64,000 nt of DNA from Chloroflexota bacterium (GCA_037444365.1 JBBIMO010000002.1:7871-71870); one strand, 5' to 3'; positions 39,548-55,578 are shown, counted from the first letter of the stretch. The notes: generated by a model from the letters alone, not told the origin. Numbers and translations are program-made.

Positions 39548-40438
39548 CTAGGCAGCAAGTCCTGCGGCTTTCAAGATGGCGGGAACCACTTCCTCCCTGC
39601 CTATAGCCATGACATGGACTCCGTGGCACATTGAGTCTTTTTTTATGGTGGCAATCATCCTGCCAGCGATCTCTATACCCTTATTGATTGCCTCGCCTTT
39701 GGGGGCAGCCGCCAATTCGTCGATCAGGTTTTGGGGCACAATGACGCCCGGGACATTGTCCGTCATATACTTGGCCATCTTGGCTGACACAAGCAAAATG
39801 ATGCCAGCCAGTATCTTCACCGGGAATTGACGGGCATATTCCATAAACCTGGCGAATCTGTCCAGGTCATAGATGGCTTGAGTCTGAAAGAATTCGGCAC
39901 CGGCTTCAACCTTCTTTTCAAACTTCATTAACTGAGGCTCAATTGGGTTTGCTTCAGGTGTGACTATGGCTCCGGCGCAGAACTCCACGGTCCCATTGAG
40001 CGCATTCCCTCCCAGGTCTTTGCCCGATTCCATCTGCCGGATTGCCTTCAGTAACTGTGTTGAGTCCAGGTCGAAAACACCCTTAGCCCCCTTGTGGTCG
40101 CCGACTACAACAGCATCTCCGGTTAGACAGAGAACATTTCTGATGCCTCTGGTATATGCGAAGAGAAGCTCGGCTTGAAGGGCAAGGCGATTACGGTCCC
40201 GGCAAGTTATCTGTAAGATGGGCTCTCCACCCCGCTCCTTGATGTCCAGGCAGCCACCAATGGAGGGAAAGCGCATGACGGAACTCTGGTGGTCAGTAAC
40301 ATTCAGCGCGTCGACCTTGTCCTTGAGAAGGTCAATATGGTGGAGCATCTTCTCAATGTTTGTCCCCTTGGGAGGACCGATTTCGCTGGTTATCACAAAT
40401 TTGCCAGATTTGAGGACTTCCCTAAAACTCGGTGCCAT
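39548..40438 (-). CDS. metF: Methylenetetrahydrofolate reductase, acetogen/anaerobe MetF type (no C-terminal regulatory domain).
   Basis: It is about 296 aa with a TIM-barrel MTHFR sequence (VITSEIGPPKG...ITCRDRNR...LCLTGD). Confidence 0.85.
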   Translation of the reverse strand: MAPSFREVLKSGKFVITSEIGPPKGTNIEKMLHHIDLLKDKVDALNVTDHQSSVMRFPSIGGCLDIKERGGEPILQITCRDRNRLALQAELLFAYTRGIRNVLCLTGDAVVVGDHKGAKGVFDLDSTQLLKAIRQMESGKDLGGNALNGTVEFCAGAIVTPEANPIEPQLMKFEKKVEAGAEFFQTQAIYDLDRFARFMEYARQFPVKILAGIILLVSAKMAKYMTDNVPGVIVPQNLIDELAAAPKGEAINKGIEIAGRMIATIKKDSMCHGVHVMAIGREEVVPAILKAAGLAA

Positions 40439-40448
40439 AGCTCCTCCT

Positions 40449-41093
40449 TCATGTGATCCTGATCGTTCGCGGCCTGGGTGCCACGCTGTAATCTCTTGGA
40501 GAATGATGCTTGCGCATCAACTCAAGTCGTCCCTGTTCTTTTAGGCGCTGATATATGACAGCCCAGGCACAGTCCTTTGCCTTGTCCACCTCGCACTTGC
40601 CGTTATTGGTGCCTCCACACGGACCGTTCAGCAAACCCTTGTGACATGCCGTCAGAGGACAAATGCCCGCAGTCTCTCCCAGGATGCATTGACCACACTG
40701 GGCACAGACTTCCTGGAAACAGCCGGGGCCGACCTCGACACCCATGAAGAGAGTATCCAATGCGGGAATGGCTGGCTTGTCAACATAGGTGCCCAGCTTA
40801 TGCACGCCTAGAGCACAGGCCATGACCAGGATACAGGCGGCATTCTGGATGGCTCCATTATTCTCCTTAATAGCTACTGCGGTCATCTCATCGCAGGCGG
40901 TGGGGATGACTATCCAGCCGGTGACCAGCTTGCCCAGCTCTTGTAGGCGCTTCCCCATCTCCAGGACCTCCTCTTTCCCGCCAGTCCTGGTCATTGTGGA
41001 GCATGTGCCGCAACCGGCAACATACACCCGGTCAAACCCCTCTAGCTGTTGCTTGATTTCCTCAAAAGGCTTCTGTTTGGTGATAGATTTCAT
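40449..41093 (-). CDS. metV: MetV, the Cys-rich zinc-ribbon partner subunit of MetF-type methylene-THF reductase.
   Basis: It is about 214 aa with AGCGTCST...CAQCGQC...CPLTACHKGLLNGPCGG cysteine clusters. It lies immediately upstream of metF, as in acetogen metVF operons. Confidence 0.75.
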   Translation of the reverse strand: MKSITKQKPFEEIKQQLEGFDRVYVAGCGTCSTMTRTGGKEEVLEMGKRLQELGKLVTGWIVIPTACDEMTAVAIKENNGAIQNAACILVMACALGVHKLGTYVDKPAIPALDTLFMGVEVGPGCFQEVCAQCGQCILGETAGICPLTACHKGLLNGPCGGTNNGKCEVDKAKDCAWAVIYQRLKEQGRLELMRKHHSPRDYSVAPRPRTIRIT

Positions 41094-41232: not shown

Positions 41233-44200
41233 TCATTTCTCTAGGTCGCACCTTAAGCATCGCTTAGCCTCCTGTCTCGCCTTCTCTTCAGAGAAGCTCA
41301 GCTCTATCTCCTTGAAGCTACCTTTCCTCTCCTGGAGAGGGAGATGAGGTGTTTCTGGCCTGAGTTGTGGTTCCCAGGTTTCCTCTGCCGAGGCTGCTTC
41401 CTCGCCAACGTTCCTCGCAGTGACAGGGGACATAACGCTGGGCTTCAGGTCATACATCTCGACCCGTGAGGTATCTCCACGGAGATACTTGTCAATGGCA
41501 ATGGCTCCTCTCCGGCCAGCCGCAATAGCTTCTATAACCATACCCGGCCCGGAGACGAAGTCTCCCCCGGCAAAGATCCCGGGAACATTGGTGACCAATC
41601 TGTTTTCATCAACTGCCAGCCTTTCCCACCGGGTGCGCTCAAGAGCACTACCCGGGGGCAGGAAGGAAAGGTCCGGAGCCTGTCCCACAGCTGCAATGAC
41701 AGTTTCCGCCGGAGCAAGGAACTCCGAGCCCGAAATTGGGATTGGCCTACGGCGCCCGCCGGCGTCGGCCTCACCCAGCTTCATGCGGACACACTGTAAG
41801 CCGGTCACTTTCCAGTCGTTGCTTACTATGCGGGTGGGACTAACAAGAAAACTGACCTGAACGCCTTCAGCCAGAGTCTCATCATACTCCACCTCAGTTA
41901 CCGGCATCTCCTCACGTGACCGGCGGTAGAAGATGCTGACCTCATCAGCACCAAGGCGAAGAGCGGTGCGAGCCGAGTCCAGGGCTACGTTGCCACCCCC
42001 AATAACAGCTACCTTGCGCCCAACCTTGACAGGCTTGCCAATCTTCACATCTCTCAGAAACCTCAGGCCATAGTAGAAGCCTTCGACGTCCTCCAGTTCC
42101 CCGGGTATACCAATGTTCTGGCTTCTTTGTGCCCCGGCGGCAATGAACACAGCTTGAAAACCACTGTTTCTGATATCGTCCACGGTAAAATTCACATTGA
42201 TTGGTGTGTTGTATCTTATCTCCACGCCGCGCTTAGCGACATGATCTATCTCCTTATCGATGACATCCCGCGGCAAGCGGAAGTCGGGTATAGCTACGGA
42301 AAGCATGCCACCACCTATGGGGAGGGCTTCGAAGACAGTGACAGGATAGCCCATTTGAGCCAGAAAGTACGCGCAGGACAGCCCGGTAGGTCCCGCTCCC
42401 ACCACTGCAACTTTCTGGTTGTGAGTCCGTGGAAATGGTTCTGGTTCAGGTGATTCCCTAACGTGGTCAAAATACCAGTCGGCGGCAAATCGCTTAAGCG
42501 CCCTGATTGCTACGGATTCATCGAGTTCCCCGCGGCGACATCTCCCCTCGCAGGGGTGATGACAGATGCGGCCGCAAATGGCAGGGAAGGGATTACGCTC
42601 CCTGATCGTATCGATGGCCTCCAGGTACTCACCTGCTGAAATGTGAGCGATGTACTTGGGGACGTTTATTCCCACCGGGCAGGTATGCTGGCACGGTGAT
42701 ATCATGAGGGCATCGCACACAGCAGCCGGGCATTTCTTCTCCTTGATATGAGTCTCATATTCATCTCTGAAATAGGCAAGGGTGGTGAGCACGGGGTTGG
42801 GGCAAGTCTGTCCCAGACCACAGAGTGAGCACTCCTTAACCGTCTTGGCTATGGTAAGCAGGGTATCCATGTCCTGTTCACGCCCTTTGCCCTGAGTGAT
42901 TCTGGTCAGTATTTCCAGCATTTGTTTGGTTCCCAGGCGGCAAGGGACACACTTTCCACAGGACTCCGCTTGAGTGAAGCTCAAAAAATACTTGGCCACG
43001 TCCACCATACAGGTTGTCTCGTCCAGCACGACCATGCCACCGGAACCCATGATGGAGCCCAATTGAGCCAGCGTTTCATATTCCACCGGCGAGTCGAGAA
43101 ATCGGGCAGGGATGCAACCACCTGAAGGCCCACCCGTCTGCACCGCCTTGAATCGCTTGCCTCGTGGAATGCCGCCACCGATATCAAATATGATGGCAGA
43201 TAGGGAAGTGCCCATAGGCACCTCCACCAATCCGCTGTTGGCAATCTTCCCGGTGAGGGCGAACACCGCCGTCCCCTTGCTCTTTTCGGTGCCAATGCTG
43301 CTAAACCAATCAGCCCCGCGGTCAATGATTATGGGGATGGAAGCCAGGCTCTTTACATTGTTAATGGTGGTAGGCTGTCCATTCAGGCCTGATTGGGCGG
43401 GAAATGGGGGGCGGGGACGAGGCATGCCCCGTCGGCTCTCAATAGAAGCCATCAAGGCTGTTTCCTCGCCACAAACAAAGGCCCCCGCACCTTCCTTGAC
43501 GTGAACCACAAAATCGAAGCCTGAGCCAAGGATATTCTCTCCCAGGAAAGACATCTGTCGGGCTTGCTCTAAGGCAGTGCGAACCCGTCTTACTGCTAAG
43601 GGATACTCGGCGCGGACATAGATGTAGCCCTCGTTGGCACCTATGGCATATCCAGCAATTGTCAGTCCTTCAACAACAGCGTGGGGATCAGCTTCCAATA
43701 TGGAGCGGTCCATGAAAGCCCCCGGGTCGCCTTCATCCGCATTACAGATAACATATTTCCTTTCCCCATGAGCCCTGCGGCAAAACTCCCACTTGAGGGC
43801 AGTGGGAAAACCGGCACCACCCCGCCCGCGGAGACCAGACTTCCTCACCTCCTCAATGACCTGCTCGGGAGTCATCAACAGAGTCTTTTTCAGTGCCCGA
43901 TAACCTCCACGAGCAATATAATGCGAGATTTTCTCCGGGTTGATTTGTCCGCAGTTACGCAGGATGACACGTTGCTGTTTCCTGTAGAAGTTTATCTCTG
44001 AATAACGCGGTACGGCTTCGCCAGTTACAGGGTCATGGTAGAAAAGGCGCTCCACGGGTTTGCCATCTCGAAGATGAGAGGTGGCGATTTGCTGAGCATC
44101 CTCGGGCTGCACATGGGTATAGAAAACGCCTTCGGGTTCAACCACTACATTGGGACCCTGCTCACAGAAACCATGGCAACCGGTGAAATCCACCTCGGCA

Positions 44201-44325
44201 TGGCTAATCCTATGTTGTCTTATTGCTTCCCTGATCGCCTCATAGACGGCATCGGAGCCGGTGGAAACACATCCCGTTCCCTGACAGACAAAGACAGTAT
44301 GATGGTCTTTCATTCTATCTTTCAC
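41233..44325 (-). CDS. Fusion protein with three parts: an N-terminal thioredoxin-like [2Fe-2S] domain, a NuoF/HydB-like NAD(P)H-FMN-[4Fe-4S] domain, and a C-terminal GltD/NfnB-like NAD(P)H:FAD oxidoreductase domain.
   Basis: It has GLRGRGGAGFPTALKWEF (the NuoF FMN site). It has a C-terminal Fe-S pair CPVGINVPKYI...CGRICHHPCEGRC followed by VAVVGAGPTGLSCAYFLAQ (FAD) and VAVIGGGNVALDSA (NAD(P)) Rossmann motifs. Confidence 0.8.
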   Translation of the reverse strand: MKDRMKDHHTVFVCQGTGCVSTGSDAVYEAIREAIRQHRISHAEVDFTGCHGFCEQGPNVVVEPEGVFYTHVQPEDAQQIATSHLRDGKPVERLFYHDPVTGEAVPRYSEINFYRKQQRVILRNCGQINPEKISHYIARGGYRALKKTLLMTPEQVIEEVRKSGLRGRGGAGFPTALKWEFCRRAHGERKYVICNADEGDPGAFMDRSILEADPHAVVEGLTIAGYAIGANEGYIYVRAEYPLAVRRVRTALEQARQMSFLGENILGSGFDFVVHVKEGAGAFVCGEETALMASIESRRGMPRPRPPFPAQSGLNGQPTTINNVKSLASIPIIIDRGADWFSSIGTEKSKGTAVFALTGKIANSGLVEVPMGTSLSAIIFDIGGGIPRGKRFKAVQTGGPSGGCIPARFLDSPVEYETLAQLGSIMGSGGMVVLDETTCMVDVAKYFLSFTQAESCGKCVPCRLGTKQMLEILTRITQGKGREQDMDTLLTIAKTVKECSLCGLGQTCPNPVLTTLAYFRDEYETHIKEKKCPAAVCDALMISPCQHTCPVGINVPKYIAHISAGEYLEAIDTIRERNPFPAICGRICHHPCEGRCRRGELDESVAIRALKRFAADWYFDHVRESPEPEPFPRTHNQKVAVVGAGPTGLSCAYFLAQMGYPVTVFEALPIGGGMLSVAIPDFRLPRDVIDKEIDHVAKRGVEIRYNTPINVNFTVDDIRNSGFQAVFIAAGAQRSQNIGIPGELEDVEGFYYGLRFLRDVKIGKPVKVGRKVAVIGGGNVALDSARTALRLGADEVSIFYRRSREEMPVTEVEYDETLAEGVQVSFLVSPTRIVSNDWKVTGLQCVRMKLGEADAGGRRRPIPISGSEFLAPAETVIAAVGQAPDLSFLPPGSALERTRWERLAVDENRLVTNVPGIFAGGDFVSGPGMVIEAIAAGRRGAIAIDKYLRGDTSRVEMYDLKPSVMSPVTARNVGEEAASAEETWEPQLRPETPHLPLQERKGSFKEIELSFSEEKARQEAKRCLRCDLEK

Positions 44326-44803
44326 CCTCCCGCTTCCTGAATAGTTGCTCCACCTTCTTAGGGTTCATGTGACCATGGACGTGGTCACTGACGACTATAT
44401 TGGGGGCTAGGGCACAAACGCCGATGCAGGCCACAGTTTCCAATGTGTATTCCCAATCAGGGCTGGTCTCCCCCTCTTCTATGCCCAGGTGTTGCTTAAC
44501 CAATTTCAATATCGTCTTTCCCCCCCGCACATGGCAGGCAGTTCCCCGACACACTCTGACAACCTTTCTGCCGCGTGGCTGCGTATAAAGCTGAGTGTAA
44601 AAGCTAATCACTCCCTGCACCTGGCTGGGGAAAAGCCCCAGGCTTTGGGCGATGAGTGGTATAGACTGAGGCGGTATGTAGCCGAACTTGCCCTGGATCT
44701 CCTGCAGCAGCGGTATGAGAGCCCACTTTCGCTGACTATGCTCAGCAACAAGGGCTCTTATTCGTTCCATGTCGATCTCTCTAGCTATTTCTGCTCCATC
44801 CAT
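44315..44803 (-). CDS. NuoE-like [2Fe-2S] thioredoxin-fold subunit (24-kDa subunit family).
   Basis: It has CRGTACHVRG...ACIGVCALAPNIVV (the NuoE Cys4 pattern). I chose the start at the Met with an AAGGAG RBS (the track ORF starts at a GTG at 44884). Confidence 0.8.
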   Translation of the reverse strand: MDGAEIAREIDMERIRALVAEHSQRKWALIPLLQEIQGKFGYIPPQSIPLIAQSLGLFPSQVQGVISFYTQLYTQPRGRKVVRVCRGTACHVRGGKTILKLVKQHLGIEEGETSPDWEYTLETVACIGVCALAPNIVVSDHVHGHMNPKKVEQLFRKREGER

Positions 44804-44847
44804 CTCCGCTGACTCCTTCGCTTCATTGTGAACAAAGCTCATCTCCT

Positions 44848-47565
44848 TCAGGCGGTAGGGAGCTTCTCTATCCTCACGCTGCACGCTTTCAGTGACGGTG
44901 CTTTTGTGTGACGATCTAGGATAATGTCAAATAGCGCATTGACCGGAGTTTCTGGGAATGAAATCGGCATGAAGAGCATGCCTTCGGGCAGTGTATTGGT
45001 GATCCTGACCCTCGCCATCACCTTGCCTACAGGTGACGTTACGTTGACCATCTCGCTGTTGGTGATGGCAAGCTCTCTGGCATCCGGCTCACAAATCTCC
45101 ACAAAAGCCTGGGGGCAGAATTTCCTTAACCGTGCAGACCGGGAGCTTCTGGAGCCCGTGCCGAAATGATTCAATATCGTCCCGGCGATCAAGGTGAAGG
45201 GATAGCCTCTCTTTCCCTCGGCAGGTGGAACATACTCAACCGGACAGAAGCGGGAAAAGCCCGCCGGGAACTGGCCGCCATGTATGCGACCGACTCCTCG
45301 GTGGCCACTCGGGTCAGCCCCATACAGGCTCTTTGCTTCTGACTCAATATAACCATTCTCTTCATATGAACTGTAGGCTGGTAGCTGAGAGCAGCTGATT
45401 ATCTCGTCCATAACTTGCTGGGGAGAGGAATATGGCATTGGAGTCCCCATCTTGTCGGCGAGTCGCAGGATAATCTTCCAATCTGGCAGGCTGTCGCCCA
45501 TAGGGGGGATTGCCGGCTGCACCTTTTGGATACTTCCTTCGAAGTTAGTGAATGTCCCCTCCTTTTCAGCGAAGCTTGCGGCTGGCAGGACTACGTGAGC
45601 CAATTTGGCCGTCTCGGTGAGGAACATATCCTGGACCACGAGGAAATCAACGGAAGCTAGAACCCCTTGAATGAAATTCGACTTTGGAAAGCTCAAGACA
45701 GGGTTTTCTCCCACGATATACACAGCTTTGATCTTTTGTTTCTCTATCTGTTCCATGATCTCCAGAGCCGTCAGCCCGGCTTCAGCCGGCAGACTCACTT
45801 TCCAACGTTCCTCGAACTTTTTCCTGGCTTGGGCATCCACCACGCTCTGATATCCAGGCAGGAATCCGGGCAATGTTCCCATGTCGCAGGCACCTTGCGC
45901 GTTGTTTTCTCTTTGCAGGGCATAGATGCCGCCTCCTCTGCGCCAGATGTTTCCCGTCAGCAACGCCAAATTTGCCAGAGCTTTCACTCCGTCTGTTCCT
46001 GTAATGTGCTGTGTGACTCCTGTGCCATAGACGATTGCTGCCTGGTTAGCCTTGGCGTACAGTCGAGCGGCGTCACGAATTGCCTCGCCCGGAACACCGG
46101 TGACCTTCTCGACGTACTTCAGGCTGTACCTTTTCAGGCTTCTGTCAAAGGCGTCGAAATTGTCTGTCCTTCTGGTGACGAATTCCTCGTCCAGCAGACT
46201 TTCGTCAATAATCACCTTGGCTAAGCCATTTATCAGAGCCAGATCAGTGCCAACTTTGGGTCTTAACCAGAGATGGGCAAACAAGGAGAGCTTTGTCTGC
46301 CGGGGGTCTATCAGCAATAATTTGACGCCATGCTGTTTGACAGCACGCTTTATGGCGTAGCCGATGGCGGGGGCTGAGGCATCAGGATCAGCCCCAATGA
46401 CTAACAGGAGCTCCGATTGCTCTAGATCCCTGAGACAATCTGTTGTGCCCAAAGAACCCAGCGATGACGCTAAACTGATACGACTGGCACAGTTGTACGA
46501 GCGACTGCCATTATCAATATTGTTGGTGCCCAGGACAGCTCTGGCGAATCTCTGCAAGAGGTAGTTCTCTTCGTTAGTGCACTTGGAAGAGCCTAAGATG
46601 GCCAGGCTGTCGGCGCCATATTCATCTTTCATCCGCCGGAATTGTGTAGCTACCAGTTGCAGGGCTTCATCCCACGATGATTCCTCGAAACCACCCATGT
46701 TCCTGACCAGAGGTTTGAGTAACCTATCCGGGCTATGGACAAAATCACAGCCATAGCTTCCCCTCACGCAAAGCGTACTTCTATATACCGAGCCTTGCTT
46801 GCCTGGCGTGGCTCGCACTACACGTCCATTCCTAGCTTCCAGGTAGATACTGCAGCCGCAACCACAGAAGGGACAGGTTGTCCGCGCAACACTCTGGGTT
46901 GTCCCTCCAAAGATTCTCTCCTTTTCTGTCAATGCGCCTGTAGGGCAGAGTGCCACGCAAGTTCCACAAAAGGTGCACTCGGAGTTTTCCAGCGGCAGGT
47001 TGCCCAGCGTCGCCGGTATGGTCGCAAATCCCCGTTGAAAGTAATCAATAGCGCCTTCAACAACCAGATCCTGACAGGCCCGAATACATTTGGCGCACAG
47101 TATACACTTGCTCAAATCCCGCTCGAGGAAGGGGTTGACTTCCTCAATGCTGGCCATGTGTGGAATCCTTTGTAGATTCACCAGGCCGATGCTCAGGTCG
47201 GCAGCAATCTGTCGTAGCTGACACCGATTACCTTTATCGCATACCAGGCAAGAATCAGGATGGCTGGCGAGCATCAACTCGACTACGGTTTTGCGGCGCT
47301 CTATGACTCTGGGGGAATGTGTGTTGATTACCATTCCCGGCGCTATCGGGGCGACACAGGATGCTAGTAGAGCCCCATTCTGTTCATTCTCTACCAGACA
47401 GACGCGGCAGGCCCCGACTGATGCGAGCTGAGGGTCATGACAGAGAGCGGGAATGTTTATGCCGGATTCCTTTGCCAGTTCCAGAATGGTCATCCCGGGA
47501 TAGCCACTCACCTCACGCCCATCGAGAGTAATGGTTATCGCCTGCAAACCAATATCCTCCTTCAC
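44848..47565 (-). CDS. FdhF/NuoG-like molybdopterin oxidoreductase. It has an N-terminal 2Fe-2S domain, a His-Cys3 4Fe-4S site and 2x[4Fe-4S] domains. It is the 'formate dehydrogenase alpha'-like subunit, but the canonical Sec/Cys-His active-site motif is absent.
   Basis: It is strongly FdhF-like (NEENYLLQRFARAVLGTNNID...NNAQGACDMGTLPGF). At the position of FdhF 'RV-U-HGPS' it reads 'RSYNCAS'. There is no in-frame TGA. Confidence 0.75.
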   Translation of the reverse strand: MKEDIGLQAITITLDGREVSGYPGMTILELAKESGINIPALCHDPQLASVGACRVCLVENEQNGALLASCVAPIAPGMVINTHSPRVIERRKTVVELMLASHPDSCLVCDKGNRCQLRQIAADLSIGLVNLQRIPHMASIEEVNPFLERDLSKCILCAKCIRACQDLVVEGAIDYFQRGFATIPATLGNLPLENSECTFCGTCVALCPTGALTEKERIFGGTTQSVARTTCPFCGCGCSIYLEARNGRVVRATPGKQGSVYRSTLCVRGSYGCDFVHSPDRLLKPLVRNMGGFEESSWDEALQLVATQFRRMKDEYGADSLAILGSSKCTNEENYLLQRFARAVLGTNNIDNGSRSYNCASRISLASSLGSLGTTDCLRDLEQSELLLVIGADPDASAPAIGYAIKRAVKQHGVKLLLIDPRQTKLSLFAHLWLRPKVGTDLALINGLAKVIIDESLLDEEFVTRRTDNFDAFDRSLKRYSLKYVEKVTGVPGEAIRDAARLYAKANQAAIVYGTGVTQHITGTDGVKALANLALLTGNIWRRGGGIYALQRENNAQGACDMGTLPGFLPGYQSVVDAQARKKFEERWKVSLPAEAGLTALEIMEQIEKQKIKAVYIVGENPVLSFPKSNFIQGVLASVDFLVVQDMFLTETAKLAHVVLPAASFAEKEGTFTNFEGSIQKVQPAIPPMGDSLPDWKIILRLADKMGTPMPYSSPQQVMDEIISCSQLPAYSSYEENGYIESEAKSLYGADPSGHRGVGRIHGGQFPAGFSRFCPVEYVPPAEGKRGYPFTLIAGTILNHFGTGSRSSRSARLRKFCPQAFVEICEPDARELAITNSEMVNVTSPVGKVMARVRITNTLPEGMLFMPISFPETPVNALFDIILDRHTKAPSLKACSVRIEKLPTA

Positions 47566-47598: not shown

Positions 47599-48426
47599 TT
47601 ACTTGGTTCTGCCTAGGCCTTCCGGCCAGTTTGCAGACACGTAGGCAAAGGACGGCGGGAAATATCTTCCTTCGCCTACTGTCCTTATGCCGGTCAAGAG
47701 ATCAGAACTGGCAGCATTCTTGGCGATGAAGCCGTAAGCCCCAACCTGCTTGGCAACAAACATATTCTCCTCTTCGTCATATTGGGTTAGAATCAGAACT
47801 CTGGTGTCGGGGTATTCCGCGGTTATTCGTTTCGTTGCTTCAAGTCCGCTCATCACCGGCATGACTATGTCCATCACCGTTACATTCGGCCTAAGACGTT
47901 GCACCTTATCAATGGCGTCTCTCCCGTCAACTGCTTCACCCATTACTTCAATGTCTTTTTGCAGGCTCAGCAGGGCACGAATTCCTTCCCTGACTACAGA
48001 GTGGTCGTCTACCACCAGCACCTTGATTCTTCTAAGTGTCTTGTCCAGGAATTTCTCAGCCCAGGCTACTACCGAAGCTAACTCGACTGGCTTGATTAAG
48101 TATTGTTCAGCCTCGAGCTTCAAACCTTCATCCATACGCCAGCCCTTGAGCAGATGCTTTTCCGGCGGGGCGTCCACCACGATGAGGGGCACCTGTCTGA
48201 AGTCGGGGCTTTGTTTGAACCACTGGTGTAACTGGAAGGCATCGCCACGCGGCATTATAGTGCCCAAAATGATCAGGTCAGGTTTTTCCCGGCGCGCTAC
48301 CTCCTCCGCCTGTGATTTGTTGCCGGCAGCAAACACCCGCCAATTCTTTGCCACCAATTTGGCTTGCATGTCCGCGACAAAGTCGGGTTCATCATCTACT
48401 AGCAGAATTTTGGTACTTCTTTCCAT
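47599..48426 (-). CDS. Tandem receiver-domain (REC-REC) response regulator without an output domain.
   Basis: It has two CheY-like modules (ILLVDDEPDF...D...K and VLVVDDHSVVREG...MDIVMP...K). The second is NarL-like but has no HTH. Confidence 0.7.
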   Translation of the reverse strand: MERSTKILLVDDEPDFVADMQAKLVAKNWRVFAAGNKSQAEEVARREKPDLIILGTIMPRGDAFQLHQWFKQSPDFRQVPLIVVDAPPEKHLLKGWRMDEGLKLEAEQYLIKPVELASVVAWAEKFLDKTLRRIKVLVVDDHSVVREGIRALLSLQKDIEVMGEAVDGRDAIDKVQRLRPNVTVMDIVMPVMSGLEATKRITAEYPDTRVLILTQYDEEENMFVAKQVGAYGFIAKNAASSDLLTGIRTVGEGRYFPPSFAYVSANWPEGLGRTK

Positions 48427-48645
48427 CTTTCACCCCCTTGCCAACTGCTCGTCCTGGCAATCCGTTTGGCCTGCTGTCAACAGTATAGTGCTCGATTTGC
48501 TGAAGGACTAGAGGCATTCACCCCAGAAATCATGGAAATGTTACTGTAACTTTCCTGGGGTTGATTACCCATTTATGAGGATCGGGCTTGCCATCGGTCT
48601 GGTGGGGGGAGCAAACCGTGACAGCGACGCCGCCAGGCGATAATA

Positions 48646-49299
48646 TCAGACTGCGATAATGCCCTTCTTCAGGGCATATTTGAACAAGTCGAGGCGGTTG
48701 TGGATATCCAGTTTCGCCATCAAGTTAGTCTTGTGTCTTTCCACGGTCTTGGGACTGATGATCAGCATTTTGGCTATCTCGTGAGTAGAGTGGCCTTCCG
48801 CCAGGAGTTTCAGTATTTCCCTCTCCCGGTTGGTAAGTTGCTGGGACGTGTCCTGGCTTCTTCCTACTCTGGCCATCTGACGATAGTCTTCGACTAAGAG
48901 TCTGGCTATGGAAGGAGAGAGGAAGGAATCACCACGGTACACAGACCGGATCGCAGAGGTAAGTTCTGAGGAGGCTGCCATCTTGCTGATGAAACCACTG
49001 GCTCCAGCTTCGATTACGGGCAATACGTACTCTCTGTCTTCATATTGAGTCAGTACTATCACCTTTGTCTGCGGGGACTCCTTGTGTATGCGGCGGGTTG
49101 ATTCCAGTCCGTCCATAAGAGGCATAGCGATATCCATAAGCACCACGTCGGGCGCAAGCCTCTTGACCAGCTCCAGCGCCTCCCTGCCGTTGGTGGCTTC
49201 GCCCACTGCTTCTATATCGCCGGTAAGAGCCAGCAAGGCGCAGATACCATCACGCACAATGGCATGATCGTCAGTCACCAGCACTCTTATCTTTCCCAT
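48646..49299 (-). CDS. NarL/FixJ-family response regulator (REC + LuxR HTH).
   Basis: It has VLVTDDHAIVRDG...LTNREREILKLLAEGHSTHEIAKMLIISPKTVERH. Confidence 0.9.
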   Translation of the reverse strand: MGKIRVLVTDDHAIVRDGICALLALTGDIEAVGEATNGREALELVKRLAPDVVLMDIAMPLMDGLESTRRIHKESPQTKVIVLTQYEDREYVLPVIEAGASGFISKMAASSELTSAIRSVYRGDSFLSPSIARLLVEDYRQMARVGRSQDTSQQLTNREREILKLLAEGHSTHEIAKMLIISPKTVERHKTNLMAKLDIHNRLDLFKYALKKGIIAV

Positions 49300-50575
49300 A
49301 TCTAAGCTCTTGACCTATTGGAATCCTGGCCCAAACCGTGGTTCCCGCTCCAATCTTGGACTCGACGCCACTCGTGCCGCCGAGAAAGCCGATCCTCTCT
49401 CTCATGCTGAACAACCCACGGCCTCGCCCAGTTTCCTCTACGTCAGTGAGTCTGGAAACATCAAATCCCTGTCCATCGTCTCGAATAGTCAACGAGAACT
49501 CGTCTGGTTGATACGCCAGGACTATGGAGACGTTCTTTGCCTGAGAATGCTTGATAATGTTGCCAACGGAACCCTGAATAACGCGAAAGAGAGCAGCTTC
49601 CACATCAGGAGGAAAGCGCATTTCAGTCCCTTTCAGCTCCACTGAAGCGCTAATGTTCAGGGGCTGGAGAGTGTTCTTGACGTGTTGGCGAGCAGCAGCG
49701 ACTAACCCCAACGTATCCAGGACAGTAGGGTGGAGGTTGGAAATCACCCTGCTTACCTCCTTGTGTACCTGCACTGTCAGCGCCTGGACTTTCTTTAGTC
49801 CAGCGATAAGCTGAGTGTCCGGATTGGCGGACTTTGAATAGATTTCTATCAACGCTTCCAGCTGAAGTGCTATGCCGGAAAGCGATTGACTGGTCTCATC
49901 GTGTAGCTCACGGGCGATCCTTCGCCGTTCTTCCTCTTCGGCTACAAGGTTCTGTCGCGCAAGCTTGCGTAGTCTTTCCCGCGCTTTTCTCAGCCGCTCG
50001 TAGAGCATTGCCTGCTCAATAGCTGTGCCAAGCTGGTCTCCAATCGTGTGCAGGAGATGCACATCTTCTTTGGTGAAGCGATGCGGCACATGGCTGGCAA
50101 CATTCATCACTCCCAGGACGGTATCTTTGGCTCGCAGGGGGACGCTCACAAACGCCCTTAGACCTTCTGAACCTATCAAGTCAAGCCGGGCGGCAGACGG
50201 CTCCGATGAAATGTCCTCCAGCAGCACTGACCTGCCGCTTTGGGCTACCTTTCCCGCAATTCCCTCGCCAAGTTTAAGGTGCATCTCTTCAGCATACTTA
50301 TCAGACAGACCGTGATAAACTCGATAGGACAGCATCTGACTCGATTCACTCAGCAGCATTATTCCCCCGACAGTCCCATTCATGATATTGAGCACATTGT
50401 CGAGGCCGATTTTGAGAATAGTGTCTAAGTCCTGCAGACCGCTGATTGCCGCCGAGACTCGACTCAAAGCCACAAGGTCATTGTAGTGTTTCTCAGCCTT
50501 GTTGCCTTGATCAGACAGACTCGTGTCAGGACTAGCTGAATCGGGGGCTTGATTGACTCCCTTGCCATTTTTCAT
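49271..50575 (-). CDS. GAF-domain sensor histidine kinase (HisKA_3/NarX-type).
   Basis: It has a GAF region followed by ARELHDETSQSLSGI (the His box of the HisKA_3 family) and an HATPase G-box. It overlaps the response regulator start by 29 bp. Confidence 0.8.
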   Translation of the reverse strand: MKNGKGVNQAPDSASPDTSLSDQGNKAEKHYNDLVALSRVSAAISGLQDLDTILKIGLDNVLNIMNGTVGGIMLLSESSQMLSYRVYHGLSDKYAEEMHLKLGEGIAGKVAQSGRSVLLEDISSEPSAARLDLIGSEGLRAFVSVPLRAKDTVLGVMNVASHVPHRFTKEDVHLLHTIGDQLGTAIEQAMLYERLRKARERLRKLARQNLVAEEEERRRIARELHDETSQSLSGIALQLEALIEIYSKSANPDTQLIAGLKKVQALTVQVHKEVSRVISNLHPTVLDTLGLVAAARQHVKNTLQPLNISASVELKGTEMRFPPDVEAALFRVIQGSVGNIIKHSQAKNVSIVLAYQPDEFSLTIRDDGQGFDVSRLTDVEETGRGRGLFSMRERIGFLGGTSGVESKIGAGTTVWARIPIGQELRYGKDKSAGD

Positions 50576-50903: not shown

Positions 50904-50995
<92 letters not shown>

Positions 50996-50996
50996 G

Positions 50997-51084
50997 CGGA
51001 GAGGGTGGGATTCGAACCCACGCTCCGATATAATCGGAGACCGCTTTTCGAGAGCGGCACCATAATCCTCTCGGTCACCTCTCC
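50997..51084 (-). tRNA. tRNA-Ser (anticodon CGA), class II. No CCA is encoded.
   Basis: The reverse complement has acceptor GGAGAGG/CCTCTCC, anticodon stem CCGCT/AGCGG with loop CTCGAAA, and the same T-arm. A single nucleotide separates it from the other tRNA-Ser. Confidence 0.8.
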
Positions 51085-52225: not shown

Positions 52226-52297
52226 GCCCCTGTAGCTCAGAGGATAGAGCACTGGCCTCCGGAGCCAGGTGCAAGGGTTCGAGTCCCTTCAGGGGCG
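52226..52297 (+). tRNA. tRNA-Arg (anticodon CCG).
   Basis: The acceptor is GCCCCTG/CAGGGGC, the D-arm is GCTC/GAGC, the anticodon stem is CTGGC/GCCAG with loop CTCCGGA, and the T-arm is AAGGG-TTCGAGT-CCCTT. Confidence 0.85.
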
Positions 52298-52401: not shown

Positions 52402-53280
52402 ATGAGTGAGCTTCTTGAGATAAGATGGCATGGCCGAGGAGGGCAGGGGGCAGTAACCTCGGCTGAATTAGTAGCTTTGGCTGCTATCGAAGAGGGTAAG
52501 TTCGCTCAAGCCTTTCCCAGCTTCGGTCCGGAGAGAAGAGGCGCGCCCGTGCTTGCCTTCAACCGCATCAGTCCAGACCAGCCCATCAGAACTAGAACCA
52601 CAGTAGAACATCCTGATATTGTTGTTGTGCTGGATACCACCCTGCTCTCTATTGTTGATGTTACCTCTGGCCTCAAGGAAGACGGTACGATCATAGTGAA
52701 CACCCACAAGGCTGCCGCTGACGCAAAGTCGGAATTAGGCAATCATTGGCGAATAGCTGTGGTCAATGCCACCGCTATTGCTCGGGAGACTCTGGGCGCG
52801 CCTATTGTCAATACAACCATGCTGGGCGCTCTTGTCAAAGCCACGAGAGTGGTGGAGATGGAATCTCTTGCCGAACCTATTAAAGAGCGTTTCGGGCTTA
52901 GAGCCAAGGTCAACATTGATGCCTGTCGCCGGGCTTATCAGGAAACATCTGTTTTTGAGCGTGAGACTGCAGCAACCAAACGACGCAAGGCATTTCAGGC
53001 GGAGAGACTCCTTTCCTGGCGGGAGCTACTTGTGGGGTGCGTTGTCGCCGAGTCGGGCAGCGCCAGCCAGTACCGGACCGGGGACTGGAGATCGCAGCAT
53101 CCTGTCTGGGATTACGAAAAGTGCAATAGTTGTGGTCTCTGCTACCTCTTTTGCCCTGAGTTTTGTGTTAAGCTGAATAAAGAAGAATGTTTTGAAGCCG
53201 ACCTCTATTACTGCAAAGGCTGCGGCATATGCAGTCAGGAGTGCCCGAAGCAGGCCATAAGTATGGTTCAGGAGAGCTGA
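52402..53280 (+). CDS. porG: 2-Oxoacid:ferredoxin oxidoreductase, fused gamma (N-terminal) and delta (C-terminal 2x[4Fe-4S] ferredoxin) subunits.
   Basis: It has the PorG-like N-terminus (WHGRGGQGAVTSAELVALAA) and C-terminal CNSCGLCYLFCPE...CKGCGICSQECP. Confidence 0.8.
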   Translation: MSELLEIRWHGRGGQGAVTSAELVALAAIEEGKFAQAFPSFGPERRGAPVLAFNRISPDQPIRTRTTVEHPDIVVVLDTTLLSIVDVTSGLKEDGTIIVNTHKAAADAKSELGNHWRIAVVNATAIARETLGAPIVNTTMLGALVKATRVVEMESLAEPIKERFGLRAKVNIDACRRAYQETSVFERETAATKRRKAFQAERLLSWRELLVGCVVAESGSASQYRTGDWRSQHPVWDYEKCNSCGLCYLFCPEFCVKLNKEECFEADLYYCKGCGICSQECPKQAISMVQES

Positions 53281-53281
53281 A

Positions 53282-54451
53282 ATGAAAAGAGTTGGTATGG
53301 AAGGTTGTTCTGCTGTTGCTGAGGCAGTCAAGTTAGCCAGAGCTGATGTTGTTGCTGCCTACCCCATTACCCCACAGAGCCACATAGCTGAACGTCTGGC
53401 TGAAATGGTGGCTAACGGCGAACTGGATGCCGATTATATCCCTGTTGAGTCAGAACACTCAGCTATGAGTGCCTGTCTTGGGTCTTCTGCCGTTGGCTCC
53501 AGGACTTTCACTGCTACTGCCGGACAGGGATTGGAACTGATGCACGAAGTCCTTTACGTCGCCTCATCCCTGCGTCTTCCCATAGTTATGGTTGTGACCA
53601 ATCGAGCTCTCTCAGGACCGCTAAACGTCTGGGGGGACCATTCTGATGTCATGGCTACACGCGACTGCGGCTGGATTCAGGTCTTCGCCGAAAATGTCCA
53701 GCAAGCCTTTGACCTTACCTTGTGTGCCTTCCGCATTGGCGAAGACCAGAAAGTCCTCTTTCCGGTAATGGTCCATATTGATGGGTTTCATCTGTCGCAT
53801 GTTGTTGAATCCCTGTGCCTTGTTGAGCAGGAAAAGGTTGACAAATTCCTTCCCCCTTATCACCATCCCTATGCTCTTAATCCGGACAAGCCGGTGACTA
53901 TGGGAGCTTATGCAGCGCCCAATTACTACACGGAAGCCAGGAAATCTCAGGATGTGGCTTTGCGAGCTGCTCACACAACAATTCTGAGGGTATGGGAGGA
54001 GTTTGGGAAAATTACCGGGCGTTCCTATTCACCGGTGGAAAGCTATGAGAGCCAGGATGCCGAGGTGCTATTGGTAGCCCAGGGCAGCTATAGTGAAACG
54101 GCCATGCTAGCCATAGACAAATTGAGAGCGGCCGGTCACAGAGTGGGACTGATCAGGTTACGCCTGTGGCGTCCTTTTCCCCTTAACGAATTGCGGAGAT
54201 CTGTAGCCAAAGCTCAACTCCTTGTTGTGCTTGACCGAGCTTTCTCCTATGGTGGTCCAGCACCGCTTTGCTCCGAGGTACAGGCGGCTCTCTGTCCTTT
54301 GGCTACAAGACCAAAGGTGGTCAGTTTCGTTGGCGGTCTCGGGGGCAGGGATATTTCGACTGAAACCTTTGAAGAGATGATACTTCGTGGCATCGACAGG
54401 GGTCGTCAAGGGGAACTTGACGAGCTGGAAGTCATTGGGGTGAGGGAATAA
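53282..54451 (+). CDS. porA: 2-Oxoacid:ferredoxin oxidoreductase alpha subunit.
   Basis: It has MEGCSAVAEAVKLARADVVAAYPITPQS...TATAGQGL, typical of PorA/VorA. Confidence 0.85.
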   Translation: MKRVGMEGCSAVAEAVKLARADVVAAYPITPQSHIAERLAEMVANGELDADYIPVESEHSAMSACLGSSAVGSRTFTATAGQGLELMHEVLYVASSLRLPIVMVVTNRALSGPLNVWGDHSDVMATRDCGWIQVFAENVQQAFDLTLCAFRIGEDQKVLFPVMVHIDGFHLSHVVESLCLVEQEKVDKFLPPYHHPYALNPDKPVTMGAYAAPNYYTEARKSQDVALRAAHTTILRVWEEFGKITGRSYSPVESYESQDAEVLLVAQGSYSETAMLAIDKLRAAGHRVGLIRLRLWRPFPLNELRRSVAKAQLLVVLDRAFSYGGPAPLCSEVQAALCPLATRPKVVSFVGGLGGRDISTETFEEMILRGIDRGRQGELDELEVIGVRE

Positions 54452-55380: not shown

Positions 55381-55578
55381 TCGCTGTTATTGGCAAACAC
55401 AATATCGTCTCTGGGCGAATAGTATCTATGCCGCAGGATGTCCAGACACAGTGTAGGACAGATTATTCGTAGCTATGGCGATCCATTCAATATCCGCCGC
55501 AGTTGCGAGTGGAAATTTCCTTGACCAGCTTGACTTATGTAAGTTATATTCTCCCCGGCGGGGTGTGGCGCAGCGGCT

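What the first reader, a model, noticed from the sequence alone, without database searches (positions are those of the whole stretch)
44848..47565. FdhF-like subunit lacks the Sec/Cys-His catalytic dyad
The protein aligns well by eye to E. coli FdhF. Matches include the NuoG-like N-terminus, the CPFCGCGC cluster, NEENYxxQRFARAVLGTNN and NNAQGACDMGTLP. In FdhF the Mo-ligating SeCys140-His141 sits in 'ARV-U-HGPS'. Here the sequence is 'SRSYNCAS'. The aligned residue is Tyr or Asn, a Cys is shifted by two positions, and no His follows. There is no in-frame TGA, so this is not a selenoprotein. The subunit may be a non-catalytic or differently catalytic MopB scaffold, as in NuoG or the hydrogenase-associated FdhA-like subunits. 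If so, it would be an electron-transfer subunit of the MetFV module rather than a formate dehydrogenase.
Basis: partly seen in the sequence, partly recalled or inferred. Interest (0 to 1): 0.6.

Follow-up and report, generated by a model that had tools for sequence, protein, structure and literature searches.

The report
Dead formate dehydrogenase wired to MetFV
This gene is annotated as a formate dehydrogenase but has lost all three residues that make such enzymes work, and it most likely serves as an iron-sulfur "wire" linking an NAD(P)H-oxidising module to the methylene-tetrahydrofolate reductase MetVF in uncultured Chloroflexi.

Summary
The 905-aa ORF lies on the minus strand (47565..44848). 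It is a full-length FdsA/FdhF-type protein. It has Tyr357-Asn358 where formate dehydrogenases (FDHs) have Sec/Cys-His. The Cys two residues downstream is not conserved, so it is not a shifted ligand.

About 150 Dehalococcoidia relatives share Tyr and Gln. Positions that are invariant in canonical FDHs (Lys44, Arg581) vary freely in this clade. The MopB half evolves twice as fast as the Fe-S half, but every Fe-S ligand is kept.

The gene always sits in the same operon: FdhA*, NuoE, a HydB-type NuoF fused to a GltD/NfnB-like NADPH module, MetV, MetF. At least five further lineages with other scrambled active sites show the same linkage to MetV or an MTHFR-family gene.

Best reading: a catalytically dead, NuoG/StnC-like electron-transfer subunit of the predicted but uncharacterised "X-type" (NuoEFG-MetFV) methylene-THF reductase. 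Loss of the Mo/W cofactor and physical coupling to MetVF are inferred, not shown. Public pipelines name these proteins "formate dehydrogenase subunit alpha". Interest is moderate.

The parts
44848..47565 (-). FdhA* : 905-aa FdsA/FdhF-type protein with a degenerate active site (annotated 'formate dehydrogenase subunit alpha')
   Evidence: ORF and translation. Pfam finds Fer2_4, NADH-G_4Fe-4S_3, Fer4, Molybdop_Fe4S4, Molybdopterin and Molydop_binding. TIGR01591 scores 681.6 against a cutoff of 666.25.
46891..47565 (-). N-terminal Fe-S domain (aa 1-225). Candidate ligands: [2Fe-2S] C42/C53/C56/C70; His-ligated [4Fe-4S] H102/C106/C109/C115; two ferredoxin-type clusters from C154/C157/C160/C164/C197/C200/C203/C207
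   Evidence: These Cys/His are invariant across 12 divergent non-canonical sequences, except C164, which is Asp in many. All 16 columns that are at least 95% conserved in canonical FDHs are kept. dN is 0.081.
44851..46890 (-). MopB-like part (aa 226-905). It has an intact FS0 cluster motif (C231/C234/C238/C266) and a dead Mo site
   Evidence: MAFFT alignment. 42 of 56 canonical-conserved columns are kept. dN is 0.175, twice that of the Fe-S part. In the AF2 model most 10-residue blocks of the MopB region have mean pLDDT of 80 or more, and TM is 0.88 to FdhF 1fdi.
46492..46497 (-). Codons for Tyr357-Asn358, at the positions of Sec140-His141 of E. coli FdhF
   Evidence: Clade census.
45907..45915 (-). 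Codons for Gln551-Arg552-Glu553, at the positions of Arg333-Gly334-Gln335 of FdhF
   Evidence: Gln is nearly invariant in the clade.
44315..44884 (-). NuoE/HydC(BfuC)-like [2Fe-2S] subunit (C112/C117/C153/C157). The true start is probably internal, because homologues align from about aa 28
   Evidence: Pfam 2Fe-2S_thioredx, NCBIfam NuoE. Cys positions. Synteny.
41233..44325 (-). 1030-aa fusion. The HydB/BfuB-type NuoF part (aa 1-~541) has an N-terminal [2Fe-2S] domain, FMN/NADH site and [4Fe-4S]. The GltD/NfnB-like part (aa ~543-1027) has 2x[4Fe-4S], FAD and an NADP(H) site
   Evidence: Pfam. The NuoF part scores 793 bits to the bifurcating NiFe-HydB 7t2r_B, against about 400 to FdsB/Nqo1. The GltD part is closest to NfnABC NfnA 9bov_A and StnC 8oh5_C.
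40449..41093 (-). MetV (Fe-S/Zn subunit of methylene-THF reductase)
   Evidence: Pfam PF12225, 118.8 bits. Synteny.
39548..40438 (-). MetF (flavin subunit of methylene-THF reductase)
   Evidence: Pfam MTHFR, 142 bits. It is the most conserved gene of the operon: dN 0.049 and 79-94% identity.
47599..50575 (-). Conserved upstream regulators: GAF histidine kinase (50575-49271), NarL-type response regulator (49299-48646) and a double-receiver protein (48426-47599, only 33 nt from fdhA*)
   Evidence: Pfam/NCBIfam. They are present upstream in every Dehalococcoidia locus with enough flank.

Best explanation
The protein (FdhA*) descends from an NAD(P)-linked formate dehydrogenase alpha subunit that has lost its Mo/W active site. 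What is still conserved is its chain of up to five Fe-S clusters and the folded MopB body.

It most likely acts like NuoG, BfuA or StnC: an electron wire and scaffold. It would dock onto a flavin module made of NuoE plus a HydB-type NuoF fused to a GltD/NfnB-like NADPH-FAD domain. Electrons would then pass between NAD(P)H and the MetV-MetF methylene-THF reductase encoded directly downstream.

This matches the predicted 'X-type' NuoEFG-MetFV reductase of Chloroflexi and Desulfobacterales.

Shown here:
- The catalytic triad is absent.
- The substitutions are conserved across the clade.
- The MopB part is under relaxed constraint and the Fe-S part under strict constraint.
- Operon synteny is invariant.

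Inferred:
- Absence of the pterin cofactor (about 0.8).
- A physical complex with NuoE/NuoF-GltD (about 0.8).
- Electron delivery to MetVF (about 0.6).
- Whether the complex bifurcates electrons is open.
For: (1) Tyr357, Asn358 and Gln551 replace Sec/Cys140, His141 and Arg333. No known FDH motif class fits 'YN...QRE'; the classes are C/U-H + RGQ/RGE/RGH or C-Q + RGH (PMC8808070).

(2) Fourteen of 56 MopB columns that are at least 95% conserved in 48 canonical representatives are changed. They include K44, H181, R333, G334, V338, R460 and R581. All 16 N-terminal columns are kept.

(3) In about 150 clade members the K44 position is R/K/M/L and the R581 position is T/G/V/S/I/A/F.

(4) Among the 150 best 50%-identity cluster representatives, 48 are canonical (K44 48/48, R581 43/43). 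The other 102 are scrambled at the same positions.

(5) dN is 0.175 for MopB and 0.081 for the Fe-S domain. In canonical FDH pairs MopB is the better-conserved half in 98% of pairs; in non-canonical pairs this holds in only 16%.

(6) The order fdhA*-nuoE-nuoF/gltD-metV-metF holds in all loci long enough to show it. It recurs in independent degenerate lineages:
- S-T
- A/S-G
- H-A, a short contig showing only an MTHFR-like gene, fdhA* and nuoE
- N-M, in an Actinobacteria MAG that has a classical BfuB and no GltD
- Y-S

(7) No terminator-like site lies in the nuoF/gltD-metV gap.

(8) Precedents: StnC is annotated as FDH, has no formate activity, and its genes lie next to metVF (PMC7483475). Its FdhF-like domain is inactive (PMC10482914). 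The NuoEFG-metFV 'X type' was proposed for Chloroflexi (PMC8515935).
Against: - The MopB fold is complete and confidently modelled (TM 0.88 to FdhF), and 42 of 56 canonical-conserved columns survive. It is still under purifying selection (pN/pS about 0.27). Retention of a pterin cofactor cannot be excluded from sequence.
- Tyr357 and Gln551 are themselves conserved, which could mean a new function at the old site.
- Two metagenomic clade members carry Cys at the ligand position together with Lys at the K44 position (L032, L034).
- Gene adjacency does not prove a complex. In S. ovata the neighbouring Stn enzyme purifies without MetVF.
- Canonical Cys-FDHs with the same NuoE/NuoF-GltD partners also lie between metF and metV in a Wood-Ljungdahl cluster (L040). 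Part of the linkage may therefore be inherited pathway clustering.
Confidence: 0.65

Rival explanations
1. A stand-alone Stn/NfnABC-like transhydrogenase (NADH + reduced ferredoxin + NADP+ interconversion). Its genes would only be co-regulated with metVF, and FdhA* would be its NuoG-like wire. MetVF would receive electrons from soluble carriers.
For: The cofactor modules are those of StnABC/NfnABC: NuoE, a BfuB-type NuoF, a GltD-like NADPH domain and a NuoG/FDH-like Fe-S subunit. In S. ovata stnABC lies next to metVF, yet Stn purifies as a separate trimer (PMC7483475).
Against: - The C-terminal 2x[4Fe-4S] domain of BfuB, proposed to serve ferredoxin, is missing. The GltD module is fused in its place.
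- In an Actinobacteria lineage the GltD module is absent, but FdhA*-NuoE-BfuB-MetV persists. The constant partner is therefore MetV, not the NADPH domain.
- No other electron-input module (RnfC2, HdrABC-MvhD) accompanies metVF in the loci examined.
- Yi et al. report that X-type clusters form their own MetFV phylogenetic group.
Confidence: 0.2
2. A still-active molybdo/tungsto-enzyme with an unprecedented site (a Tyr ligand, or no protein ligand as in arsenite oxidase). It would catalyse formate oxidation or another reaction.
For: - The MopB fold is complete and is under purifying selection.
- Tyr357 and Gln551 are conserved.
- Rare Cys variants occur with Lys at the K44 position.
- B. subtilis ForC shows that one triad residue (His to Gln) can change without loss of activity.
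Against: - All three triad residues are changed at once, together with Val338, Lys44, His181, Arg460 and Arg581.
- The Lys44 and Arg581 positions are hypervariable within the clade.
- Sister lineages carry S, A, H, N, T or E at the ligand position. No common chemistry is preserved.
- The conservation pattern between MopB and the Fe-S domain is reversed.
- From my own knowledge, no Tyr-ligated member of the DMSO-reductase family is known.
Confidence: 0.08
3. A decaying pseudogene or an assembly/frameshift artefact.
For: The only support is the faster evolution of the MopB half.
Against: The 905-codon frame is intact. More than 150 full-length relatives from independent assemblies carry the same substitutions. 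pN/pS is 0.13-0.27. Synteny is conserved.
Confidence: 0.01

Closest known systems
StnABC / NfnABC (Bfu-family NADH/ferredoxin:NADP+ transhydrogenases; PDB 8oh5, 9bov, 9n5u)
   Same: Same set of modules: a NuoE-like subunit, a HydB-type NuoF, a GltD/NfnB-like NADPH-FAD domain and an FDH/NuoG-like Fe-S subunit whose FDH-like domain is inactive. stn genes lie beside metVF in S. ovata.
   Different: Here GltD is fused to the C-terminus of NuoF, replacing the B3/B4 ferredoxin domain. In Stn it is inserted into the NuoG-like subunit. Here the FDH-like subunit keeps a complete MopB fold with 40-45% identity to real FDHs. The operon includes metV-metF.
NAD+-dependent formate dehydrogenase alpha subunits (R. 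capsulatus FdsA 6tg9; B. subtilis ForC/YjgC 8rqz; E. coli FdhF 1fdi)
   Same: Domain order, all Fe-S motifs and overall fold. E-values are 1e-170 to 1e-176 and TM is 0.78-0.88. The sequence passes the TIGR01591 cutoff.
   Different: It lacks the Cys/Sec ligand, His141, Arg333, Lys44 and Arg581. ForC changes only His to Gln and keeps the Cys and Arg.
Predicted 'X-type' MTHFR: NuoEFG homologue + MetFV (Yi et al. 2021, PMC8515935; representative Dethiosulfatarculus sandiegensis)
   Same: nuoE/F/G-like genes lie directly upstream of metV-metF, and the type is said to be widespread in Chloroflexi. This locus fits that description.
   Different: That paper gives one paragraph and no biochemistry. 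In the sections read here, it does not describe the 'NuoG' as an FDH paralogue with a dead triad, nor the NuoF as a BfuB-GltD fusion. I did not compare sequences with D. sandiegensis.
NuoG/Nqo3 of respiratory complex I
   Same: N-terminal [2Fe-2S] and [4Fe-4S] chain, followed by a cofactor-less MopB-derived domain used as scaffold.
   Different: NuoG is far more diverged (TM 0.59-0.69, 19-22% identity) and is part of a membrane complex.
Characterised MetVF reductases: type III RnfC2-MetVF (A. woodii) and type IV HdrABC-MvhD-MetVF (M. thermoacetica)
   Same: A MetVF core served by an added NADH-oxidising flavin/Fe-S module encoded next to metVF.
   Different: The input module here is NuoE + BfuB-GltD + FdhA*, which matches none of types I-IV.
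FDH-like subunit of the Dehalococcoides organohalide-respiration complex (Ser instead of Cys/Sec)
   Same: Another Chloroflexi FDH homologue with a substituted ligand, thought to lack FDH activity (PMC5736913).
   Different: That protein is a membrane-associated FdnG-type subunit associated with Hup hydrogenase and reductive dehalogenases. It is not a cytoplasmic FdsA-type protein with NuoEF and MetVF.

Membership tests
Mo/W-bisPGD formate dehydrogenase alpha subunit (FdhF/FdsA, TIGR01591) | Whole-protein profile match above the curated cutoff | tested here: met
   TIGR01591 scores 681.6 bits against a cutoff of 666.25. This is why pipelines name it FDH alpha (names).
Mo/W-bisPGD formate dehydrogenase alpha subunit (FdhF/FdsA, TIGR01591) | Sec or Cys ligand to Mo/W (FdhF U140) | tested here: not met
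   Tyr357. Tyr is found in about 147 of 150 clade members.
Mo/W-bisPGD formate dehydrogenase alpha subunit (FdhF/FdsA, TIGR01591) | His next to the ligand, or Gln with a compensating His in RGH (classes in PMC8808070) | tested here: not met
   Asn358, and 'QRE' instead of RGQ/RGH/RGE.
Mo/W-bisPGD formate dehydrogenase alpha subunit (FdhF/FdsA, TIGR01591) | Catalytic Arg (FdhF R333 / FdsA R587) | tested here: not met
   Gln551. The Arg at +1 is not conserved in L010, L051 or P0114.
Mo/W-bisPGD formate dehydrogenase alpha subunit (FdhF/FdsA, TIGR01591) | Proximal [4Fe-4S] (FS0) Cys4 motif | tested here: met
   C231, C234, C238 and C266 are invariant.
Mo/W-bisPGD formate dehydrogenase alpha subunit (FdhF/FdsA, TIGR01591) | Other residues invariant in canonical FDHs (K44, H181, R460, R581, V338) | tested here: not met
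   They are R, A, G, T and A in the query. The K44 and R581 positions are hypervariable in the clade. That these residues contact the pterin rests on my memory of the FdhF structure and was not checked here.
Mo/W-bisPGD formate dehydrogenase alpha subunit (FdhF/FdsA, TIGR01591) | Bound Mo/W-bisPGD and formate oxidation / CO2 reduction activity | not testable with these tools
   Needs purified protein.
NuoG/BfuA/StnC-type non-catalytic Fe-S subunit | N-terminal [2Fe-2S] plus His-ligated and ferredoxin-type [4Fe-4S] motifs conserved | tested here: met
   The ligands are invariant across divergent lineages.
NuoG/BfuA/StnC-type non-catalytic Fe-S subunit | MopB-derived domain without catalytic residues, encoded with NuoE/NuoF homologues | tested here: met
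NuoG/BfuA/StnC-type non-catalytic Fe-S subunit | Strongly diverged or reduced MopB domain | tested here: not met
   Full-length fold, with TM 0.88 to FdhF against 0.59-0.69 to NuoG.
Bfu family (BfuABC electron-bifurcating enzymes, PMC9304861) | BfuB core: FMN/NADH site, [4Fe-4S] B1, N-terminal [2Fe-2S] domain | tested here: met
   793 bits to NiFe-HydB 7t2r_B over aa 11-541. C14/C19/C50/C54 and C456/C459/C462/C502 are present.
Bfu family (BfuABC electron-bifurcating enzymes, PMC9304861) | B2/Zn-site motif after the NuoF [4Fe-4S] | tested here: inconclusive
   'HIKEKKCPAAVC' aligns with 'HIKDKRCPAKIC' of HydB. The same Cys pair could also serve the fused GltD cluster domain.
Bfu family (BfuABC electron-bifurcating enzymes, PMC9304861) | C-terminal 2x[4Fe-4S] ferredoxin domain of BfuB (B3/B4), proposed route to ferredoxin | tested here: not met
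   The alignment to HydB stops at aa 541. The GltD Fer4_20/FAD/NADPH module follows instead. The Actinobacteria relative does have this domain.
Bfu family (BfuABC electron-bifurcating enzymes, PMC9304861) | BfuC (NuoE-like) with [2Fe-2S] | tested here: met
   Pfam PF01257 at 154.9 bits; C112/C117/C153/C157.
Bfu family (BfuABC electron-bifurcating enzymes, PMC9304861) | Coupled three-substrate (bifurcating) activity | not testable with these tools
   Needs enzyme assays.
'X-type' NuoEFG-MetFV methylene-THF reductase (predicted, PMC8515935) | nuoE/F/G homologues immediately upstream of metV-metF | tested here: met
   Window operon. It is conserved in the Dehalococcoidia loci long enough to show it.
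'X-type' NuoEFG-MetFV methylene-THF reductase (predicted, PMC8515935) | MetFV falls in phylogenetic group III of Yi et al. | not tested
   No D. sandiegensis sequence was retrieved.

The most novel reading that the evidence does not exclude
The five proteins form a new, Bfu-derived, energy-coupled methylene-THF reductase. NADH would be oxidised at the HydB-type flavin site. One electron path would run downhill through the dead-FDH Fe-S wire and MetV to MetF and methylene-THF. That would pay for an uphill path to NADP+ through the fused GltD domain, or to ferredoxin in the Actinobacteria variant that keeps the B3/B4 domain.

Relatives with a live Cys-FDH in the same position, between metF and metV in a Wood-Ljungdahl cluster (L040), would then couple CO2 reduction to methylene-THF reduction.

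This would answer the long-standing question of how the most exergonic step of the Wood-Ljungdahl pathway is used for energy conservation.
Probability: 0.25. Interest if true: 0.85.

Novelty: new variant of a known kind. Interest (0 to 1): 0.5.

Why it matters
1. Annotation. In the searches run here, relatives that carry a name are called "formate dehydrogenase (NADP+) alpha subunit". They pass the curated TIGR01591 cutoff although they lack every catalytic residue. Metabolic reconstructions of Dehalococcoidia and other subsurface Chloroflexi that count this gene as the first step of the Wood-Ljungdahl pathway are probably wrong.

2. Bioenergetics. How methylene-THF reduction is fed with electrons, and whether it is energy-coupled, is an open question in acetogen and subsurface metabolism. 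Here MetVF is fused genetically to a HydB-type flavin module, an NADPH module and a dead-FDH wire. The arrangement is conserved across several deep lineages. It is a concrete, expressible candidate for a fifth reductase type that has so far been mentioned only speculatively.

3. Enzyme evolution. It is a clean example of a catalytic molybdoenzyme becoming an electron-transfer scaffold. Both live and dead versions exist in the same gene context.

Tried and rejected
- Exact-sequence look-up of the window protein and of its 100%-identical cluster representative found no contig on record, so the source record was not identified.
- A literature search for MetFV + Dehalococcoidia gave nothing relevant. 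The Sewell 2017 and Merino 2020 papers describe Hdr-type metVF clusters, not this one.
- An Rfam scan of the window found only five tRNAs. There is no riboswitch near the operon.
- The promoter/terminator scan was at chance level. It was used only to note that no terminator-like site lies between nuoF-gltD and metV.
- MetV has no relative among solved structures, and MetF has only distant ones.
- The idea that Cys359 is a ligand displaced by an indel was rejected. The alignments are ungapped there, and the Cys is present in only 2 of 120 homologues.
- The idea that Arg552 replaces Arg333 after a one-residue shift was weakened. It is Gly, Asp or Lys in some clade members.
- The AF2 model and Foldseek search confirm an intact FDH-like fold.
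- The adjacency to the histidine-utilisation genes was checked in other loci and is not conserved.
Full report
**What is at the coordinates**

The interval 44848..47565 is one ORF on the minus strand. It has a GTG start, encodes 905 aa and has no internal stop. Pfam finds an NuoG-like N-terminus (Fer2_4, NADH-G_4Fe-4S_3, Fer4), followed by Molybdop_Fe4S4, Molybdopterin and Molydop_binding. NCBIfam TIGR01591, "formate dehydrogenase subunit alpha", scores 681.6 bits, just above its curated cutoff of 666.25. The best matches among solved structures are:
- B. subtilis ForC/YjgC (4e-176)
- NAD-dependent FdsA-type enzymes (about 1e-171)
- M. extorquens Fdh1A
- E. coli FdhF (2e-129)

**Check of the observation**

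The phmmer alignments are ungapped around the active site. They align 'NNIDNGSRSYNCAS' with 'NNVDNCSRYCQSPA' (ForC) and 'NNTDTCARVCHSPT' (FdsA type). I fetched E. coli fdhF and nuoG and made a MAFFT alignment with five canonical FDHs taken from related loci.

| FdhF residue | Query residue |
|---|---|
| Sec140 | Tyr357 |
| His141 | Asn358 |
| Arg333-Gly334-Gln335 | Gln551-Arg552-Glu553 |
| Lys44 | Arg268 |

The four FS0 cysteines are intact. The codons are at 46492-46497 and 45907-45915.

The loss is larger than noted, because the catalytic Arg is gone too. Known FDH active-site classes are C/U-H with RGQ, RGE or RGH, or C-Q with RGH (PMC8808070). 'Y-N ... QRE' fits none of them.

**Is it a one-off?**

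No. A search of 5.8 billion proteins returned 120 homologues at 72-100% identity. Those that carry a name are called formate dehydrogenase alpha subunit of Chloroflexota/Dehalococcoidia MAGs. Adding proteins from genome and metagenome loci gives about 150 clade members at 60% identity or more.
- The ligand position is Tyr in all but three: one His and two Cys. Tyr to Cys is a single A/G change.
- Gln551 is nearly invariant.
- The query's Cys359 is Ser in almost all others.
- The Lys44 position is R/K/M/L.
- The Arg581 position is T/G/V/S/I/A/F.

**Wider family**

An exhaustive HMMER search of 1.84 billion cluster representatives gave 150 best hits. Of these, 48 carry the canonical triad. In those, Lys44 (48/48), Arg581 (43/43), His181 (47/48) and Arg460 (47/47) are also fixed. 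The other 102 have scrambled residues at all these positions.

Using columns at least 95% conserved in the 48 canonical sequences, the query keeps 16 of 16 in the N-terminal Fe-S domain but only 42 of 56 in the MopB part. The 14 lost are, in FdhF numbering:
- G39
- K44
- C140
- H141
- H181
- G323
- P331
- R333
- G334
- V338
- R460
- W528
- P529
- R581

Val338 corresponds to Val592 of R. capsulatus FdsA. The sixth Mo ligand is oriented towards that residue (PMC7171172).

In a neighbour-joining tree the non-canonical sequences form one long-branched group apart from the canonical ones. Long-branch attraction cannot be excluded.

**Selection**

I compared the window with eight syntenic loci.

| Region | dN |
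|---|---|
| MopB part | 0.175 |
| Fe-S part | 0.081 |
| NuoF | 0.093 |
| GltD | 0.076 |
| MetV | 0.077 |
| MetF | 0.049 |

pN/pS is 0.27 for MopB against 0.10-0.16 for the others. The MopB part is relaxed but not decaying.

Among canonical representatives the MopB half is the better-conserved half in 98% of pairs (0.43 against 0.34 identity). Among non-canonical ones this holds in only 16% of pairs (0.34 against 0.40). This reversal is what one expects if the constraint moved from catalysis to electron transfer.

**Structure**

An AF2 model built from a 70-sequence alignment has mean pLDDT 76. Most 10-residue blocks of the MopB region score 80 or higher. The Fe-S loops and residues 729-765 are low. 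Foldseek places it on FdsA-type FDHs (TM 0.78) and on E. coli FdhF (TM 0.88, rmsd 2.9 Å). It is well above NuoG (0.59-0.69). The fold is thus a complete FDH fold. Fold alone cannot say whether a pterin is bound.

**Neighbourhood**

Downstream on the same strand lie:
- a NuoE-like [2Fe-2S] protein
- a 1030-aa fusion protein
- MetV
- MetF

The first 541 residues of the fusion score 793 bits to the electron-bifurcating NiFe-HydB of A. mobile. They score 660-730 bits to other HydB, NfnB and StnB proteins, against about 400 to non-bifurcating FdsB/Nqo1. The N-terminal [2Fe-2S] domain and the 'HIKEKKCPAAVC' motif are kept.

The alignment ends where HydB's C-terminal two-cluster ferredoxin domain would begin. 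A GltD/NfnB-like module follows, and it is closest to NfnABC NfnA and StnC. The full cofactor inventory of the Stn/NfnABC transhydrogenases is therefore present but differently fused. One defining Bfu feature, clusters B3/B4 (PMC9304861), is replaced.

**Synteny**

Every Dehalococcoidia locus long enough to show it has this order:
- GAF-kinase
- NarL regulator
- double receiver
- fdhA*
- nuoE
- nuoF-gltD
- metV
- metF

The same core recurs around proteins only 41-51% identical to the query, with other residues at the dead site.

| Lineage (ligand positions) | Gene order |
|---|---|
| S-T | fdhA*-nuoE-nuoF/gltD-metV-metF, next to a formate-THF ligase |
| A/S-G | MTHFR-like, fdhA*, nuoE, nuoF/gltD, metV, metF |
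| H-A | MTHFR-like, fdhA*, nuoE (contig ends) |
| N-M (Actinobacteria MAG) | fdhA*-nuoE-classical BfuB with ferredoxin domain-metV, no GltD |
| Y-S | same core as the window, with GAF-kinase and regulator downstream |

A canonical control (C-H-R) sits with a plain NuoE/NuoF and a MobA-like gene, and has no metV.

Canonical Cys-FDHs with the same NuoE/NuoF-GltD partners also exist. In L040 one lies between metF and metV inside an acsB-cdhD-acsE Wood-Ljungdahl cluster. The linkage to MetVF therefore probably predates the loss of the active site.

**Comparison with the literature**

- In Sporomusa ovata the StnABC genes lie next to metVF. StnC was annotated as FDH and showed no formate activity (PMC7483475).
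- The StnC FdhF-like domain is catalytically inactive and mediates tetramerisation (PMC10482914).
- Four MetF/MetVF reductase types are characterised (PMC8760232).
- Yi et al. 2021 noted a fifth arrangement, "NuoEFG homolog" genes upstream of metFV. They said it is widespread in Desulfobacterales and Chloroflexi, has not been studied, and may bifurcate; they called it "X type" (PMC8515935).
- Frank et al. 2016 saw an expressed FDH-nuoE-nuoF-metVF cluster in a Firmicutes population. They read it as linking the first and last steps of the pathway (PMC5080403).

The window's operon fits the X type. What this analysis adds:
- The 'NuoG' is an FDH paralogue with a dead triad that still passes the FDH profile cutoff.
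- The 'NuoF' is a BfuB-GltD fusion.
- Several independent scrambled lineages share the MetV linkage.
- Live-FDH relatives occupy the same context.

**Mechanism and confidence**

I consider it very likely (about 0.9) that this protein is not a formate dehydrogenase. It is likely (about 0.8) that it has no Mo/W-bisPGD. It is likely (about 0.8) that it acts as the Fe-S wire and scaffold of a NuoE/NuoF-GltD flavoprotein module. It is more likely than not (about 0.6) that this module exchanges electrons with MetVF.

Whether the enzyme is a plain NAD(P)H-dependent reductase or couples methylene-THF reduction to NADP+ or ferredoxin reduction cannot be decided from sequence.

The main rival is a stand-alone Stn-like transhydrogenase that is only co-regulated with metVF.

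**Verdict**

- Observation: confirmed.
- Interpretation: supported.
- Novelty: moderate. The kind has been predicted but never characterised, and the molecular details are new.
- The practical consequence is a systematic misannotation of "formate dehydrogenase" in Chloroflexi genomes.

Noticed in passing
window 32774-38799 (- strand): A complete folate-dependent histidine-utilisation cluster lies directly downstream of metF. It comprises histidine ammonia-lyase (38799-37309), glutamate formiminotransferase (37412-36321), formimino-THF cyclodeaminase (36334-35756), urocanase (35715-34024) and an imidazolonepropionase-like amidohydrolase (34027-32774). It would feed C1 units into the THF pool used by MetVF. 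The adjacency is not conserved in other loci.
   Followed up: partly
window 47599-50575 (- strand): A GAF-domain HisKA_3 kinase, a NarL-type response regulator and a protein with two receiver domains are conserved immediately upstream of the operon in all Dehalococcoidia loci. The double-receiver gene ends 33 nt before fdhA*. Other lineages have PAS or HAMP kinases and regulators beside the operon instead.
   Followed up: partly
L040 3848-14820 (also L039, L042): A canonical Cys-His-Arg FDH alpha subunit, with NuoE and the same 1027-aa NuoF-GltD fusion, lies between metF/DUF3786 and metV. It sits inside a cluster with acsB, cdhD and an acsE-like gene. This may be a live-FDH ancestor of the arrangement, or an FDH-MTHFR combination.
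   Followed up: partly
L112 114-5863 (Actinobacteria MAG GCA_018725585.1): A degenerate FdhA* (Asn-Met at the Cys-His positions) is followed by NuoE, a 635-aa classical BfuB with the C-terminal ferredoxin domain and no GltD, and then MetV. In this variant ferredoxin rather than NADP+ could be the third partner.
   Followed up: partly
L032 1-2421 and L034 3097-4857: Two metagenomic members of the Tyr clade (60% and 77% identity) carry Cys-Ser at the ligand positions and Lys at the Lys44 position, while keeping Gln at the Arg333 position. This may be a reversion, a polymorphism or an intermediate state.
   Followed up: no
L110 41-4258 (protein P0123): A 1405-aa protein appears to contain a duplicated NuoG/FDH-like architecture (Glu-His at the ligand positions, Arg333 kept). 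It is followed by cNMP-binding proteins, NuoE and a 594-aa BfuB, with no metV in the 5.6 kb downstream.
   Followed up: no
window 52402-55380 (+ strand): A three-gene 2-oxoacid:ferredoxin oxidoreductase (gamma-delta fusion, alpha, beta) is flanked by tRNA genes at 52226-52297 and 55559-55631. It is a ferredoxin-reducing enzyme close to the operon.
   Followed up: no
window 50908-51084 (- strand): Two adjacent 88-nt tRNA genes (long-variable-arm type by length) lie just upstream of the kinase gene.
   Followed up: no
window 44848-44884: The longest nuoE ORF overlaps the 3' end of fdhA* by 37 nt. Homologues align only from about residue 28, so the real start is probably internal. The nuoE stop overlaps the GTG start of nuoF-gltD by 11 nt, which suggests translational coupling.
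   Followed up: no
window 46891-47565, residue C164 of FdhA*: The fourth Cys of one ferredoxin-type cluster motif (C164 in 'CILCAKCIRAC') is present in the query. It is Asp in the consensus of other non-canonical lineages, so that cluster may be differently ligated or absent in relatives.
   Followed up: no
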